From: an uncultured Gammaproteobacteria bacterium
Lineage (GTDB): Bacteria > Patescibacteriota > Patescibacteriia > UBA1558 > 2-01-FULL-52-15
Length of the DNA stretch: 64,000 nt
Direction of reading: 5' to 3'
Assembly (NCBI GenBank): GCA_964441335.1
Contig: CAYTUI010000001.1
Span: forward strand, 961-64,960
Below the pieces are notes generated by a model, which saw nothing but the letters and a program-made list of their open reading frames with translations, was not told where the DNA came from and did not search any database. Of the stretch, positions 1 through 52,680 are shown piece after piece (within the stretch, counting starts at the first letter, position 1; each line of letters begins with the position of its first letter). A program made the translations under genes and the position numbers.

Positions 1-12
1 AAAAAATCCTCA

Positions 13-96
13 GGAGGAGTCGCATAGCGGCCATTGCAACGGCTTGGAAAGCCGTGATCCGAAAGGGTCCCGCGGGTTCGAGTCCCGCCTCCTCCG
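13..96 (+). tRNA. tRNA-Ser (anticodon GGA), type II with long variable arm; CCA not encoded
   Basis: Cloverleaf read directly: acceptor GGAGGAG/CTCCTCC, anticodon stem ACGGC/GCCGT with loop TTGGAAA, long variable arm, T-arm GCGGG-TTCGAGT-CCCGC. Confidence 0.8.
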
Positions 97-219
97 CTTT
101 GGCAAAATTCATACCATTCGGTATTGAATTTTGACAACATGAGTGTGGGACTCGAAGGGCACGAGAGCGCGCAATGCCCAGGCCCGAATCGGAGTGAGGG
201 GAGTCCCGCCTCCTCCGCC

Positions 220-759
220 ATGACAATTTTTTATCGGCATGACCCGAGTACCTATAATAATAAAACAATTATGGCTTTTCCTAAGACAACCGAAGTTAGT
301 GAGGAGTATAAAGCAAGAATCAATTGGTTAGTACAGCCCACATTGAATAATGTAAAATTTCAACAATTACAAAACAAGCACTTGTTTAAGTTTATATTAT
401 ACTGGATGATATTTGATTCATATTTGACTGAAATTTCTCAATGTAGAGCGGATGAAGAAAAGCTAAAATATTTCTTTAAAGAAGATAGCGATTTTAAAAA
501 ATACATCGCAGATAAAAAAATTTCTGCAAAATCGCTAAAAGAACTTTCTCCCGTACAAGACATGCGTCCAAATTCAAACAGAAGCATTCTCCTAGAAGAC
601 GAAAATAATTTAGAGCAAATAATTAGATTTTTGTATCAAATTAGATGCAATCTCTTCCATGGCGCAAAGGATTTAAAAAAAGCCAGAGAGAATGACTTAG
701 TATATGAAGGCGCCAAGTACTTAGAATTATCAGTGGGAGGCTGGATAATAGGACAATAA
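220..759 (+). CDS. Hypothetical AT-rich protein with an Rx4HG (RCNLFHG) HEPN-like motif. ORF is open from 124; start set at the first ATG after the tRNA-Ser 3' echo copy
   Basis: ORF track 124..759; C-terminal motif IRCNLFHGAK fits the HEPN Rx4-6H signature. No other recognisable domain. Start codon uncertain (ATG 140, 220 or 271). Confidence 0.4.
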   Translation: MTIFYRHDPSTYNNKTIMAFPKTTEVSEEYKARINWLVQPTLNNVKFQQLQNKHLFKFILYWMIFDSYLTEISQCRADEEKLKYFFKEDSDFKKYIADKKISAKSLKELSPVQDMRPNSNRSILLEDENNLEQIIRFLYQIRCNLFHGAKDLKKARENDLVYEGAKYLELSVGGWIIGQ

Positions 760-5554: not shown

Positions 5555-5631
5555 CGCGGGGTAGAGCAGTCAGGCAGCTCGCCAGGCCCATAACCTGGAG
5601 GTCGCCGGTTCAAATCCGGCCCCCGCTACCA
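5555..5631 (+). tRNA. tRNA-Met (anticodon CAT), initiator-like (1:72 mismatch C.U, GG/CC in anticodon stem), CCA encoded
   Basis: Cloverleaf read directly: CGCGGGG-TA-GAGC..GCTC, anticodon loop CCCATAA, T-arm GCCGG-TTCAAAT-CCGGC, 3' CCCCGCTACCA. Confidence 0.8.
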
Positions 5632-5720
5632 CGCCATTCGCGAATGGCGTGGGCTACCCACATCGTTCCCGAACGACATGGGCTACCCATCACGCCATTC
5701 ACGAATGGCGTGAGTCCCCC
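5632..5720 (+). repeat. REP-like hairpin array directly abutting the tRNA-Met 3' end
   Basis: Perfect palindrome ACGCCATTCGCGAATGGCGT (centre TCGCGA), then two GGGCTACCCA-flanked hairpin units (GTGGG-CTA-CCCAC) and a second palindrome CACGCCATTCACGAATGGCGTG. Units contain CTAC and echo the tRNA GCTACCA end. Confidence 0.6.
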
Positions 5721-5811
5721 ACTTTATTATGGTGTCCACAATTTTACGCGCAGCTCGAGAACGATATAGTTTATTAAATAATTATCACAATAAACAGGGA
5801 AACCTGTTTTT

Positions 5812-6078
5812 ATGTTTTATTTTTATATTATACAAAGTCAAAAAGACAAAAATTGGTTCTATAAGGGTCAAACCGGCGATTTGCGAAATAGAATGCGGCG
5901 CCATCATAGTGGGATGGTTAAATCAACCGCTAAATATTTGCCAGTTAGATTGGTTTATTATGAGGCTTATATAACTAGGAGAGCCGCTAAACAAAGAGAA
6001 TGGAGTGTAAAATATCATGGATCGGTTTCTGTCCCGTTACTTAAAAGAATAAAGAGAAGCCTTGAAGATAAGGACTAG
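5812..6078 (+). CDS. GIY-YIG nuclease superfamily protein (UPF0213/YhbQ-like), 88 aa
   Basis: FYFYIIQSQKDKNWFYKGQTGDLRNRMRRH matches the GIY-x10-YIG..R..H core; small stand-alone gene between two tRNA-Met genes. Confidence 0.7.
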   Translation: MFYFYIIQSQKDKNWFYKGQTGDLRNRMRRHHSGMVKSTAKYLPVRLVYYEAYITRRAAKQREWSVKYHGSVSVPLLKRIKRSLEDKD

Positions 6079-6120
6079 GACTTGAAAAAATGCCTATTTA
6101 AGGTATGCTTTCTATGTTTT

Positions 6121-6197
6121 GGCGGGGTAGCTCAGTTGGTTAGAGCGCAGGACTCATAAGCCTGAGGTCGTGGGTTCGATTCCCACCCCCGCTACCA
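6121..6197 (+). tRNA. tRNA-Met/Ile2-type (anticodon CAT), elongator-like, CCA encoded
   Basis: GGCGGGG-TA-GCTC AGTTGGTTA GAGC, anticodon loop CTCATAA, T-arm GTGGG-TTCGATT-CCCAC, 3' CCCCGCTACCA. Confidence 0.8.
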
Positions 6198-6310
6198 CGT
6201 CGCTCGCGAGCGACGTGGGCTACCCACATCGTTCCCGAGCGACGTGGGCTACCCACATCGTTCCCGAGCGACGTGGGCTACCCACATCATTGCGAATGGC
6301 GTGAGCCACC
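6198..6310 (+). repeat. REP-like tandem array: palindrome CACGTCGCTCGCGAGCGACGTG plus 2.5 copies of 29-nt unit GGCTACCCACATCGTTCCCGAGCGACGTG
   Basis: Direct tandem repeats seen in sequence, no spacers (so not CRISPR). Each junction forms hairpin GTGGG-CTA-CCCAC containing CTAC. Confidence 0.65.
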
Positions 6311-6391
6311 CATAATGATTATAAATTAAATAAAGTATAACAGATGCCCGTAAGGGCTGTTTTTTTATTTCTGAACATGTATACTTGGCTA

Positions 6392-8159: not shown

Positions 8160-8460
8160 TTAGAAGATAGGGAATAGTAGATAGAAGATGGGGAATAGGA
8201 GATGGAAGGTAGGGGATGGAAGATAGAAGATTGGGGTTGCCCCTCGTTCTTAAGTTCTTTGGTTCTTTCGTTCTGTGTTCTTCGGTTCTTTTGTTTTTAC
8301 GTTCTTTAGTTTTTAGATTATAGGTATTAGGTTCCCTCGTTCTTACGTTCTTAAGTTATTTTGTTCTTCGGTTCTTCAGTTCTTAAGTTCTTTAGTCCCT
8401 CCGTTCTTCCGTTCTTTCGTTCTTCGTTCTTCAGTTTCCCCGTCCCTCTGGTAACAAATG
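8160..8460. repeat. Composite low-complexity intergenic element: AGAAGATAG/TAGTAG purine tract followed by about 30 degenerate GTTCTT(A/C)(A/G) heptamer-like repeats
   Basis: Seen directly; the same two-part architecture recurs at 12500-12650. Confidence 0.7.
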
Positions 8461-11982: not shown

Positions 11983-12348
11983 AATGAGGGTATTTTAGCA
12001 GACTATGGCTATAAAATGAAGCGTCCACAGATTGACAGCAGAGCATATTTTTAGTATCTTAACAACGTTATTTTGTTGCCGCTGTGTCCCTCGACTTCGC
12101 CATCAGCCATTGGCTGATCGGGACAAGCGGACGTAACGTACATGATAATAGTAAGTTTGTAAGTTAGCAGTATTATTGATATTTGATGCCGCTGTGGCGG
12201 AACCCCACTTCACTGAAGTTTCGTGGGGCAGGTTGGCAGACTCCGTATCGCTAAAGCTTTGCGGGATAGGCGTGCACGACTCTTGTCAGAGGCGAATAGG
12301 CAAAATCGCGCCTTGATAAGTGTATTATGTAAATTGTTATCATTTGTT

Positions 12349-12435: not shown

Positions 12436-12499
12436 AATGGAAGTAATATACACAGGTTCGCCTGCCCGCCGTAGCTTTAGCGTAGGCGGGACCCCGACC

Positions 12500-12650
12500 A
12501 GCGGCACCATTTAGTTAGTAGCTAGTAGTTAGTAGTCAGTAGCTTGCAGCCAGTAGCTTATGGAGTAGAGCTCGTAGTCCTTAAGTTCGTCAGTTCTTAA
12601 GTTCATCGGTTCATAGGTTATTAAGCATTAAGACTTAATACTTAATTATT
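12500..12650. repeat. Composite GTAG-rich (AGTTAGTAGCTAGTAG...) then GTTCTTAAGTTC-rich low-complexity tract
   Basis: Seen directly; same architecture as 8160-8460. Confidence 0.7.
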
Positions 12651-40208: not shown

Positions 40209-40369
40209 AGTGATTCTGAAAAAATTCACAGGAGATGTAGTTGCGGGTTTCGCCCAAAGGGCGACCCGGTCGAATGACCGGGCAAGTCCTGTCACCCCGA
40301 CCATTCGACTTTGTTCAGCTTAGCTTGACCAAGAAAATTATATAACAATATTAAATCTCGTTTGATGGA

Positions 40370-52559: not shown

Positions 52560-52680
52560 TTGAATTATGGATTGAAAGAGGTAGTAGGAAGTAGGTAGTA
52601 GGAAGTAGGTAGTAGCTAGTAGGTAGTAGGTTATCGCCCAGTTGGTGGTGGGCGAAGGTTGTGGGCGGGGGTTCCGATTA
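52560..52680. repeat. GTAG/CTAC-rich low-complexity tract plus terminator hairpin (CGCCCA..TGGGCG on minus strand) downstream of topA
   Basis: AGGTAGTAGGAAGTAGGTAGTAG... repeats seen directly. Confidence 0.65.

What the first reader, a model, noticed from the sequence alone, without database searches (positions are those of the whole stretch)
13..220. tRNA-Ser followed 104 bp downstream by an exact 18-nt copy of its own 3' end (att-like echo)
The 18 nt at 80-97 (GAGTCCCGCCTCCTCCGC, T-arm 3' half plus acceptor) recur exactly at 201-218. There they are followed by CA, so the copy encodes CCA while the gene does not. This is the classical signature of site-specific integration into a tRNA 3' end, but only about 100 bp is bracketed. 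An AT-rich HEPN-like gene starts immediately after the copy. The same echo pattern is found at four other tRNAs in this window.
Basis: seen in the sequence. Interest (0 to 1): 0.55.

Follow-up and report, generated by a model that had tools for sequence, protein, structure and literature searches.

The report
Mini insertion splitting tRNA-Ser gene end
The repeated 18 bases are real and mark a tiny, gene-less piece of DNA (about 120 bp) inserted into the tail of a serine tRNA gene; it belongs to a small family of such inserts in Patescibacteria, an unusual miniature version of a well-known kind of mobile-DNA integration.

Summary
tRNA-Ser(GGA) lies at 13-97, and its last 18 nt (80-97) recur exactly at 201-218, followed by CA. 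[quoted passage not shown]

Orthologous tRNA-Ser(GGA) genes in related Patescibacteria end in ...GAGTCCCGCCTCCTCCGCCA and are followed directly by a conserved flank motif. That motif follows the distal copy here (221-252). So the distal copy is the original 3' end, and 121 bp has been inserted.

The insert is not a random scar. The same architecture recurs at tRNA-Ser(GGA) in at least four lineages: an AT-rich hairpin, a 12-nt box that is the reverse complement of the T-loop plus T-stem, a GC hairpin, a GGAGNGAGG motif, then the tRNA 3' copy. It is present or absent between contigs that are 99% identical upstream. In L105 it occurs in tandem with a hybrid core.

No integrase lies in or beside it. 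Large serine recombinase elements sit at the same tRNA in relatives, but I found no sequence link to the insert.

Best reading: a miniature, integrase-less, att-flanked integrative module.

Caveat: window 1-214 is absent from six public contigs that match window 215 onward (100% wherever compared), so the join to the rest of the window may be chimeric.

The parts
13..97 (+). tRNA-Ser(GGA) gene. It is intact but has no encoded CCA (ends ...CTCCTCC-G-C|TTT). Its last 18 nt are the element-side junction (attL-like).
   Evidence: ARAGORN. Rfam RF00005, 54 bits. The other five tRNAs of the window, and four more tRNAs upstream on the L082 contig (same organism as window 215 onward), all encode CCA.
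80..97 (+). Proximal copy of the 18-nt core (tRNA positions from mid T-loop to one base past the discriminator).
   Evidence: Exact repeat.
98..144 (+). Left arm of the insert. It starts TTTGGC and holds the AT-rich hairpin 103-135 (AAAATTCATACC / GGTATTGAATTTT).
   Evidence: Folds. Homologous left arm in L105 unit 2 (TTTGTCAAAATCCATATC...GGATTTTGACAATATGA). Same type of hairpin in L012.
145..156 (+). Box GTGGGACTCGAA, the reverse complement of the T-loop plus T-stem 3' strand (TTCGAGTCCCgC, 77-88). It can also pair with the distal core (201-209).
   Evidence: A box with 2 or fewer mismatches lies downstream of the tRNA in all 5 tRNA-Ser(GGA) loci that carry the echo (L108, which has no echo, carries only a degenerate box). 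Among 64 non-redundant tRNAs there was only 1 other, presumably chance, hit, and none upstream.
157..179 (+). GC hairpin GGGCA...TGCCC.
   Evidence: Compensatory change to GGGCG...CGCCC in L090 and L105.
191..199 (+). GGAGTGAGG, an imperfect inverted repeat of the acceptor 3' strand CCTCCTCC. It lies immediately 5' of the distal core.
   Evidence: Conserved as GGAGCGAGG in L090, GGAGCGAGA in L105 unit 1 and GAGTGAGA in L012. All 7 counted pairs are kept in the 3 alignable sequences.
201..220 (+). Distal copy of the core plus CA. This is the displaced original 3' end of the tRNA gene, with CCA (attR-like).
   Evidence: Exact repeat. Insert-free orthologs of the same tRNA type (L095, L099-L102) end in exactly this 20-mer.
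221..252 (+). Native 3' flank motif of tRNA-Ser(GGA): TGACAATTTTTTATCGGCATGACCCGAGTACC.
   Evidence: It abuts the tRNA directly in L110 (28/29 identical), L092, L093 and L097. It follows the last echo in L105 and L089.
215..218 (.). Breakpoint. Six public contigs match the window from 215 rightwards (100% wherever compared) but have unrelated sequence to the left. L089 matches the window up to 218 and diverges to the right.

Best explanation
The echo marks the two junctions (attL-like at 80-97, attR-like at 201-218) of a 121-bp, ORF-less insertion into the 3' part of a tRNA-Ser(GGA) gene.

Shown:
- The ancestral gene ended ...GAGTCCCGCCTCCTCCGCCA and was followed by the flank TGACAAYTTTTTATCGG..GACCCGAGT.
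- The inserted DNA supplies a replacement 3' end without CCA, so the tRNA gene stays whole. It pushes the original 3' end, with CCA and its flank, 121 bp downstream.
- The insert belongs to a family of 120-150-bp modules specific for tRNA-Ser(GGA) in Patescibacteria. Their common plan is an AT-rich hairpin, a box complementary to the T-loop and T-stem, a GC hairpin, a GGAGNGAGG motif, then the core.
- The modules vary in presence between near-identical strains, occur in tandem, and form hybrid cores.

Inferred:
- The recombination partner had the order right arm, core, left arm. That order is seen at the middle junction of L105.
- The recombinase acts in trans. The module is therefore a miniature, integrase-less, att-flanked element, comparable to a very small cis-mobilizable element.
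- Candidate recombinases are the large serine recombinases found directly 3' of the same tRNA in relatives.
- The tRNA then needs RNase Z-type trimming and CCA addition.
For: Insert-free orthologs:
- tRNA-Ser(GGA) with CCA abuts its flank directly in L095-L097 and L099-L102. L110 also has no insert, but no encoded CCA either.
- L110 (no insert) and L105 (two units) share both flanks.

Within-species polymorphism:
- L090 (filled) is 99% identical to L095 over 1.4 kb upstream and 98% to L097 over the 559 nt available, and both lack the insert.
- L089 (filled) is 99% identical upstream to L091, which carries a different insertion.

Tandem units and hybrid core:
- In L105 the middle core GAATCCCACC|TCCTCCGC combines the resident T-arm with a foreign acceptor strand.
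- It is flanked by a homolog of the window's right arm on its left and a homolog of the window's left arm on its right.

Module more conserved than its hosts:
- The right arm differs at 2 of 56 nt between L090 and L105 unit 1, although their tRNAs are of different types.
- The whole 121-nt insert is identical between the window and L089, while the sequence beyond position 218 diverges sharply.

Same architecture elsewhere:
- L012, a more distant lineage, has the same plan.
- Among 64 non-redundant tRNAs the box is essentially restricted to tRNA-Ser(GGA) trailers.

Boundaries and context:
- All sequence breakpoints fall at the core edges (CCGC|).
- All 9 other tRNAs examined encode CCA: five in the window and four upstream on the L082 contig, which matches window 215 onward.
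- Large serine recombinase genes lie directly after this tRNA in L101 and L112. L095 has a left end homologous to that of L101.

Precedent:
[quoted passage not shown] It leaves a 20-bp direct repeat and tandem islands (PMC3146451).
- Partial tRNA copies are a known by-product of integration (PMC9897764).
Against: - No recombinase gene lies in the unit or on the unit-bearing contigs (L089, L090, L105).
- The ends of the serine-recombinase elements are not homologous to the unit arms.
- The L112 recombinase element shows no tRNA 3' echo on the 4.5 kb of contig downstream of the tRNA.
- No copy was found in viral contigs or phage genomes.
- No filled/empty pair with both flanks identical was found within one species.
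- A 121-bp double-stranded circle is a poor recombination substrate.
- The conserved internal pairings show two compensatory changes, so an RNA-level role for the same sequence cannot be excluded.
- Window 1-214 may not belong to the organism of the rest of the window.
Confidence: 0.6

Rival explanations
1. Inert scar. A normal kilobase-sized integrative element (phage, island) once sat between the two copies and was deleted down to about 100 bp. What remains has no activity or function.
For: - Direct repeats of a tRNA 3' end are the usual footprint of such elements.
- The locus is a hotspot with serine-recombinase elements, a homing-endonuclease cassette and variable cargo in relatives.
- Echoes at tRNA-Pro, in L092 and in the M-type contigs (the public contigs that match window 215 onward) are visibly decayed.
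Against: - Independent deletions should leave different leftovers. Instead the same hairpin-box junction and the same order of parts recur in the window, L105 unit 2 and the distant L012.
- The arms recombine as modules (window = left arm of L105 unit 2 + right arm of L105 unit 1).
- The insert is 100% identical between the window and L089, while the adjacent flank is only about 60% identical.
- Right arms are more conserved than the host tRNAs.
Confidence: 0.2
2. Functional RNA. The trailer is co-transcribed with the tRNA and folds into a T-arm/acceptor mimic ending in CCA (box:echo helix, GC hairpin, GGAGNGAGG:CCTCCTCC helix). It would act in tRNA processing, as a decoy, or as a small tRNA-like RNA.
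For: - The predicted folds are stable (z = -3.9 for 13-220, -2.9 to -3.1 for 98-220).
- In the three alignable units, 100% of the 63 pair cells are standard pairs. Two pairs change on both sides and G-U wobbles are tolerated.
- The box tracks the local T-stem sequence (GTGGG, GACGG, ACAGG).
Against: - With only 3 sequences the covariation is not significant (107 of 500 shuffles reach it).
- L089 lacks the CCA after its echo, and core 1 of L105 lacks it too.
- The unit is dispensable in near-identical strains.
- The left arms are unrelated between units.
- No Rfam family matches.
- Inverted repeats are equally expected of recombinase binding sites.
Confidence: 0.1
3. Intron in the T-loop. The true tRNA would be 13-79 joined to 201-220, with 80-200 removed by splicing.
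For: The minimum-free-energy fold of 13-220 pairs the tRNA 5' half with the distal copy and loops out 77-200. The distal copy carries CCA, like the other nine tRNAs examined.
Against: - The organisms are bacteria (DnaG, sigma-70, GroEL context).
- A complete tRNA exists without splicing.
- 121 nt is too small for a group I intron, and no ribozyme family matches.
- In L089 the distal copy has no CCA.
- The L105 tandem units cannot be explained by a single intron.
Confidence: 0.02
4. Assembly artefact. The repeat itself would be produced by mis-assembly at the end of a contig.
For: - Window 1-214 is absent from six public contigs that match window 215 onward (100% wherever compared).
- The window's DnaG is only 43% identical to that of L099, a relative of the clade where this tRNA block is native.
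- The shared flank motif could bridge two genomes in an assembly graph.
Against: - The tRNA-insert-echo block is reproduced base for base in an independent contig, in its native groEL-LemA-HtpX-DUF5671 context (L089).
- Homologs exist in L090, L105-L107 and L012.
- So only the join at 215-218 is in doubt, not the echo.
Confidence: 0.03

Closest known systems
Integrative elements that target the 3' part of tRNA/tmRNA genes, in particular the Dehalococcoides ssrA genomic islands with the serine recombinase DsiB (PMC3146451)
   Same: [quoted passage not shown]
- The gene is kept intact.
- Tandem arrays are bounded by repeats.
- A conserved motif lies just upstream of the displaced repeat.
- 441- and 540-aa serine recombinase genes sit at the same tRNA in relatives.
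   Different: - Only 103 bp lies between the repeats.
- There is no integrase or any other ORF.
- The conserved internal plan includes an inverted copy of the T-loop region.
- No sequence link to the recombinase-bearing elements was found.
Cis-mobilizable elements (CIMEs) and accretion of att-flanked elements. The concept is as I know it from the ICE/IME literature; it is also mentioned in PMC3146451 and listed in PMC5704250, which I did not read in detail.
   Same: Flanked by attL- and attR-like sites. Lacks recombination and transfer genes. Occurs in tandem with hybrid junctions.
   Different: CIMEs are kilobase-sized derivatives of known ICEs or IMEs. Here the unit is about 120 bp, no parent element is identified, and mobilisation is not shown.
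Folded single-strand attachment sites: CTX-phage attP(+) used by XerCD, and integron attC sites (from my own knowledge; not tested here)
   Same: An inverted and a direct copy of the target-like sequence, 45-75 nt apart, could fold into a hairpin that mimics the duplex target. The stem has a bulged base. Integration is in tandem at one chromosomal site.
   Different: There is no evidence for a single-stranded intermediate, and none for Xer or IntI involvement. The target is a tRNA T-arm and acceptor region, not dif or attI.
Partial tRNA gene copies left by mobile-element integration (PMC9897764)
   Same: [quoted passage not shown]
   Different: The reported cases bracket 9-23 kb of viral or island DNA, not about 100 bp of structured non-coding DNA.

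Membership tests
tRNA-targeting site-specific integrative element (att-flanked insertion) | Direct repeat equal to a 3' segment of the tRNA gene at both boundaries | tested here: met
   80-97 = 201-218, an exact 18 nt. The same holds in L089, L090, L105 and L012.
tRNA-targeting site-specific integrative element (att-flanked insertion) | Target tRNA gene regenerated and intact | tested here: met
   ARAGORN and Rfam (54 bits) call a complete tRNA at 13-97. The encoded CCA is lost.
tRNA-targeting site-specific integrative element (att-flanked insertion) | Empty-site alleles in relatives | tested here: met
   L095-L097, L099-L102 and L110 lack the insert. L090 is 99% identical upstream to L095 and 98% (559 nt) to L097. 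No pair has both flanks identical within one species.
tRNA-targeting site-specific integrative element (att-flanked insertion) | Integrase/recombinase gene inside the element | tested here: not met
   The 103-nt interior has no real ORF. No recombinase lies on L089, L090 or L105. tblastn finds no large serine recombinase in the window. None appears among the 25 listed Pfam families (of 46) matched by the 38 ORFs scanned from 13 kb onward, nor among the ten ORFs of the first 13 kb.
tRNA-targeting site-specific integrative element (att-flanked insertion) | Excision products or a circular junction | not testable with these tools
   This needs read-level data or PCR. The L105 middle junction has the expected right arm-core-left arm order, but it is chromosomal.
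Cis-mobilizable element (CIME) | att sites on both sides, with no recombination or transfer genes | tested here: met
Cis-mobilizable element (CIME) | Shares its att sites with an autonomous element that can mobilise it | tested here: inconclusive
   Serine-recombinase elements abut the same tRNA 3' end in L101, L112 and L095. Their ends are unrelated to the unit arms, and L112 shows no echo.
Known structured RNA family (Rfam) | Match to a curated covariance model | tested here: not met
   Only tRNA passes. All other matches are far below gathering scores.
tRNA intron (archaeal BHB type or group I) | The gene is complete only after removal of the intervening sequence | tested here: not met
   A complete tRNA is encoded by 13-97 without splicing. 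The organisms are bacterial. No intron family matches.
HEPN domain protein (for the adjacent ORF 220/271-759) | Profile match to a HEPN family, plus the Rx4-6H motif | tested here: inconclusive
   RCNLFH is present in the sequence. There is no hit in Pfam, NCBIfam, PHROGs or the PDB. PADLOC gives DzbB at E = 0.0014.

The most novel reading that the evidence does not exclude
The units could be a previously undescribed class of about 120-150-bp, ORF-less mobile modules dedicated to tRNA-Ser(GGA) of Patescibacteria. In this reading the inverted box and the direct core fold, as single-stranded DNA or as RNA, into a mimic of the tRNA gene's T-arm and acceptor region. That folded hairpin, rather than a duplex attP, would be the recombination substrate or guide. 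This is analogous to CTX-phage attP(+) or integron attC, but aimed at a tRNA gene. Arms would be exchanged between units at the conserved box.
Probability: 0.12. Interest if true: 0.75.

Novelty: new variant of a known kind. Interest (0 to 1): 0.42.

Why it matters
Integration into tRNA 3' ends is textbook biology, so the echo itself is ordinary. The less ordinary finding is that a 120-bp, gene-less insert with a fixed internal plan recurs at the same tRNA in several Patescibacteria lineages. It comes and goes between near-identical strains, stacks in tandem and swaps arms.

If these are miniature elements mobilised in trans, they would be a compact natural att-site cassette. They would also be a marker of a recombination hotspot next to dnaG-rpoD in genomes often regarded as poor in mobile DNA.

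The finding has a practical side too:
- tRNA genes in these genomes can lose their encoded CCA by insertion.
- Partial tRNA copies can mislead annotation.
- A conserved tRNA flank may create chimeric joins in metagenome assemblies, as may have happened at position 215 of this window.

Tried and rejected
- **Rfam.** I searched the window, the 1-400 region, and the L105 and L012 units. Nothing passed except tRNA.
- **Phage or plasmid attP.** Four exact-pattern scans of viral contigs and a blastn against phage genomes found nothing.
- **Large serine recombinase link.**
  - The extended L112 locus has no tRNA 3' echo on the 4.5 kb of contig downstream of the tRNA.
  - The left ends of the L095 and L101 recombinase elements are homologous to each other but not to the unit arms.
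  - The only viral relative of the recombinase is cut at the contig end, so its att site is missing.
- **Insert as an inverted partial tRNA copy.** Only about 16 nt (the box) aligns, and the alignment score is not above that of shuffles.
- **Terminator or promoter role for the trailer.** No terminator-like site was found, and promoter-like sites were at chance level.
- **Close relatives of the window's own organism.** None turned up among the 80 best RpoD-related loci from genome representatives (best RpoD identity 63-67% among near-full-length matches).
- **Integrases in the window.** tblastn found no serine recombinase. None appeared among the 25 listed Pfam families (of 46) for the 38 ORFs scanned from 13 kb onward.
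- **HEPN assignment of the neighbouring ORF.** Not confirmed.
- **Caps reached.** The metagenome and genome DNA scans and the contig look-ups hit their limits, so the unit family could not be surveyed further.

Full report
**1. The observation**

ARAGORN finds tRNA-Ser(GGA) at 13-97, and Rfam's tRNA model scores 54 bits over 13-96. The 18-mer GAGTCCCGCCTCCTCCGC at 80-97 recurs exactly at 201-218. The gene copy is followed by TTT. The distal copy is followed by CA, which gives discriminator G plus CCA.

Within the tRNA, the T-stem is 72-76/84-88 and the T-loop is 77-83. [quoted passage not shown] It is the only non-tandem exact direct repeat of 16 nt or more with spacing of 300 nt or less in the whole window.

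The other five tRNAs of the window all encode CCA. So do four further tRNAs upstream on the public contig L082, which matches the window from position 215 onward. The tRNA-Ser gene copy is the exception.

- tRNA-Pro has a 21-nt echo with two mismatches at 40283-40303.
- tRNA-Leu has a 9-nt echo at 12501-12509.
- The two tRNA-Met genes carry a different feature: 29-nt tandem hairpin units ending in GCTACC(C)A.
- tRNA-Asn has nothing.

**2. Anatomy of the 103 nt between the copies**

| Window coordinates | Feature |
|---|---|
| 103-135 | AT-rich hairpin |
| 145-156 | Box GTGGGACTCGAA, the reverse complement of the T-loop plus T-stem 3' strand (11 Watson-Crick pairs and 1 G-U with 77-88; 9 pairs with the distal copy) |
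| 157-161 / 175-179 | GC hairpin GGGCA/TGCCC |
| 191-199 | GGAGTGAGG, an imperfect inverted repeat of the acceptor 3' strand |

No Rfam family other than tRNA matches. No terminator-like site is present.

**3. Related sequences**

A metagenome scan with a 30-nt piece of the tRNA body found two contigs.
- L089 matches window 1-218 except for a compensatory D-stem pair, and then diverges.
- L090 has the same tRNA, again without CCA (CCGC|TTT), and a 147-nt insert. The left half of that insert is unrelated. The right 58 nt is about 88% identical to the window and includes the compensatory change GGGCA/TGCCC to GGGCG/CGCCC. The echo is perfect and carries CCA.

Both contigs have groES-groEL-LemA-HtpX-DUF5671 upstream of the tRNA. 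Homologs of the DUF5671 protein led to more loci.

Insert-free orthologs:
- In L095-L097 and L099-L102 the orthologous tRNA ends ...CCTCCTCCGCCA with no insert (L097 has a T-stem variant).
- In L110 the tRNA abuts ATTGACAACTTTTTATCGGCATGACCCGAGT. That sequence is 28/29 identical to window 221-249.
- The same flank motif follows the tRNA in L092, L093 and L097, and follows the last echo in L105 and L089.
- The distal copy plus flank in the window is therefore the original gene end, and 121 bp has been inserted.

L105-L107 carry two units in tandem:
- The tRNA (a different sequence type, again cut at CCGC|) comes first.
- Unit 1 follows. Its right arm differs at 2 of 56 nt from that of L090.
- Next is a hybrid core, GAATCCCACC|TCCTCCGC. 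It joins the resident T-arm to a foreign acceptor strand.
- Unit 2 follows. Its left arm is homologous to window 98-144.
- Last come the resident 3' end with CCA and the native flank.

Further observations:
- L012, from a more distant lineage in which the tRNA lies next to dnaG-rpoD, has the same plan of hairpin, box, GC hairpin, GAGTGAG motif and echo.
- Among 64 non-redundant tRNAs in all fetched loci, a box with two or fewer mismatches lies downstream only at the tRNA-Ser(GGA) units, apart from one probable chance hit. It never lies upstream.
- Upstream DNA is 99% identical between L090 (filled) and L095 (no unit), and 98% between L090 and L097 over the 559 nt available. It is also 99% identical between L089 (filled) and L091, which carries a homing-endonuclease cassette instead. 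The locus therefore varies within species.

**4. Interpretation**

Several observations are what site-specific insertion into the tRNA 3' part predicts:
- insert-free alleles in relatives;
- displacement of the native 3' end and its flank;
- breakpoints that always fall at the core edges;
- tandem units;
- a hybrid core.

They are not what a vertically inherited structural RNA predicts. [quoted passage not shown] Those islands are integrated by a 540-residue CcrB-like serine recombinase (PMC3146451). Partial tRNA copies are a recognised by-product of integration (PMC9897764).

Large serine recombinase genes do lie immediately 3' of this tRNA in L101 (540 aa) and L112 (441 aa). L095 has a left end homologous to that of L101. 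I could not link them to the units:
- Their ends are not homologous to the unit arms.
- L112 shows no echo.
- The only viral relative is truncated.

The units are also not what random decay of large elements would leave. The same order of parts and the same hairpin-box junction recur in three lineages. Arms are shuffled as modules between units. The arms are better conserved than the host tRNAs.

My best reading (0.6) is a miniature, integrase-less, att-flanked module mobilised in trans. An inert scar (0.2) and an RNA-level function of the trailer (0.1) remain open. The proposed pairings are fully kept in the three alignable units, with two compensatory pairs. With three sequences this is not significant, and inverted repeats are equally expected of recombinase sites.

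**5. A caveat about the window**

Six public contigs from independent assemblies match the window from 215 onward, at 100% identity wherever I compared them (up to 11.6 kb). To the left they carry unrelated sequence: a DNA methyltransferase, a GmrSD-like gene, a tRNA cluster, and a decayed tRNA-3'-like end ...GGTAGCCCGCCA abutting the same flank.

The window's DnaG is only 43% identical to that of L099. Yet L099's upstream DNA is about 70% identical to that of L089, and window 1-218 is 99% identical to L089. So the first 214 nt come from, or were acquired from, a different lineage than the rest of the window.

Two explanations are possible:
- An assembly chimera. Because the flank motif is conserved across lineages, it could bridge two genomes in an assembly graph.
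- A real recombinant. A tRNA-Ser(GGA) near dnaG-rpoD is the syntenic arrangement in L099 and L012, so the arrangement is not implausible.

I cannot decide between these without reads. The echo itself does not depend on the answer, because L089 reproduces it in its native context. The adjacency of the echo to the ORF at 220/271-759 does depend on it. That ORF is not demonstrably HEPN.

**6. Verdict**

The echo is a known kind of feature (tRNA-gene att duplication) in an unusual miniature, conserved, recurrent form, found so far only at tRNA-Ser(GGA) of Patescibacteria. Interest is moderate.

Noticed in passing
window 1-218 versus 215-64000; loci L081-L086, L118, L119: Six public contigs match the window from 215 onward (100% wherever compared). 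To the left they carry a different region (methyltransferase, GmrSD-like gene, four tRNAs) ending in a decayed tRNA-3'-like ...GGGGTTTCAGCCCGAGGTAGCCCGCCA. The window's left end is 99% identical to L089, which comes from a lineage whose relative L099 has a DnaG only 43% identical to the window's. This is either a chimeric join or a real recombinant.
   Followed up: partly
window 221-252; L110, L105, L092, L093, L089, L097: A conserved motif, TGACAAYTTTTTATCGG(N3-5)GACCCGAGT, lies directly 3' of tRNA-Ser(GGA) across divergent lineages (28/29 identical between the window and L110). Its function is unknown. It contains a small TCGG/CCGA hairpin.
   Followed up: partly
L091-L094, L112-L116 (e.g. 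L092 3450-4604): The native tRNA-Ser is truncated to its first 19 nt. It is followed by a 346-aa LAGLIDADG-like endonuclease ORF (Pfam E = 1e-6, PHROG endonuclease E = 5e-7) and a different, complete tRNA-Ser(GGA). This looks like a homing-endonuclease cassette that replaces its target tRNA with a resistant allele.
   Followed up: partly
window 5555-6312: Two tRNA-Met(CAT) genes, whose tRNA-plus-trailer blocks are 78% identical, flank an 88-aa GIY-YIG ORF (5812-6078). Both trailers (5629-5728, 6195-6312) consist of 29-nt tandem units. Each unit is a hairpin whose foot pairs CCA with TGG, followed by GCTACC(C)A, a copy of the tRNA's last 7 nt.
   Followed up: no
window 12188-12203 and 12436-12509: tRNA-Leu(CAA) has a 5' echo (GCCGCtGTGGCGGAAC, 15/16) 145 nt upstream. 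Its 3' trailer contains ACCCCGACCA (the tRNA-Pro 3' end), directly followed by GCGGCACCA (its own 3' end).
   Followed up: no
window 40209-40303: The tRNA-Pro trailer has the same layout as the Ser unit: a small hairpin, a box-like ACAGGAGATGTA (40228-40239), two GC hairpins, then the echo CAAGTCCTGTCACCCCGACCA. The box matches the echo's CCTGT variant rather than the tRNA's CCCGC.
   Followed up: partly
L103 935-1030; L105 2400-2470: A 5' echo of tRNA-Ser (GGAAGGGcGCCGGAGTGG) lies about 80 nt upstream of the gene in L103. It is separated from the gene by two small hairpins and a T-run. L105 has the same hairpins without the echo.
   Followed up: no
L101 3765-5387; L112 12936-14261; L095 3537-3686: Large serine recombinase elements are inserted immediately after the CCA of tRNA-Ser(GGA) in several species. 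The L095 and L101 left ends share ...ATTTTGAAGGNATTTTTGAANTCGCAAAA...CGGAAGTTCGAACCAATCTTTTT.
   Followed up: partly
window 8230-8440, 12569-12630, 52574-52629: Intergenic arrays of 8-nt (GTTCTTNN) and 14-nt (GAAGTAGGTAGTAG) tandem repeats.
   Followed up: no
window 12470-12489; L082 about 5740-5790 (minus strand); L092 4670-4690: A short hairpin motif, AGCTTTAGCG(T/A), recurs in the trailers of tRNA-Leu(CAA), tRNA-Ser(GCT) and the L092 tRNA-Ser, just after tRNA-3'-like remnants.
   Followed up: no
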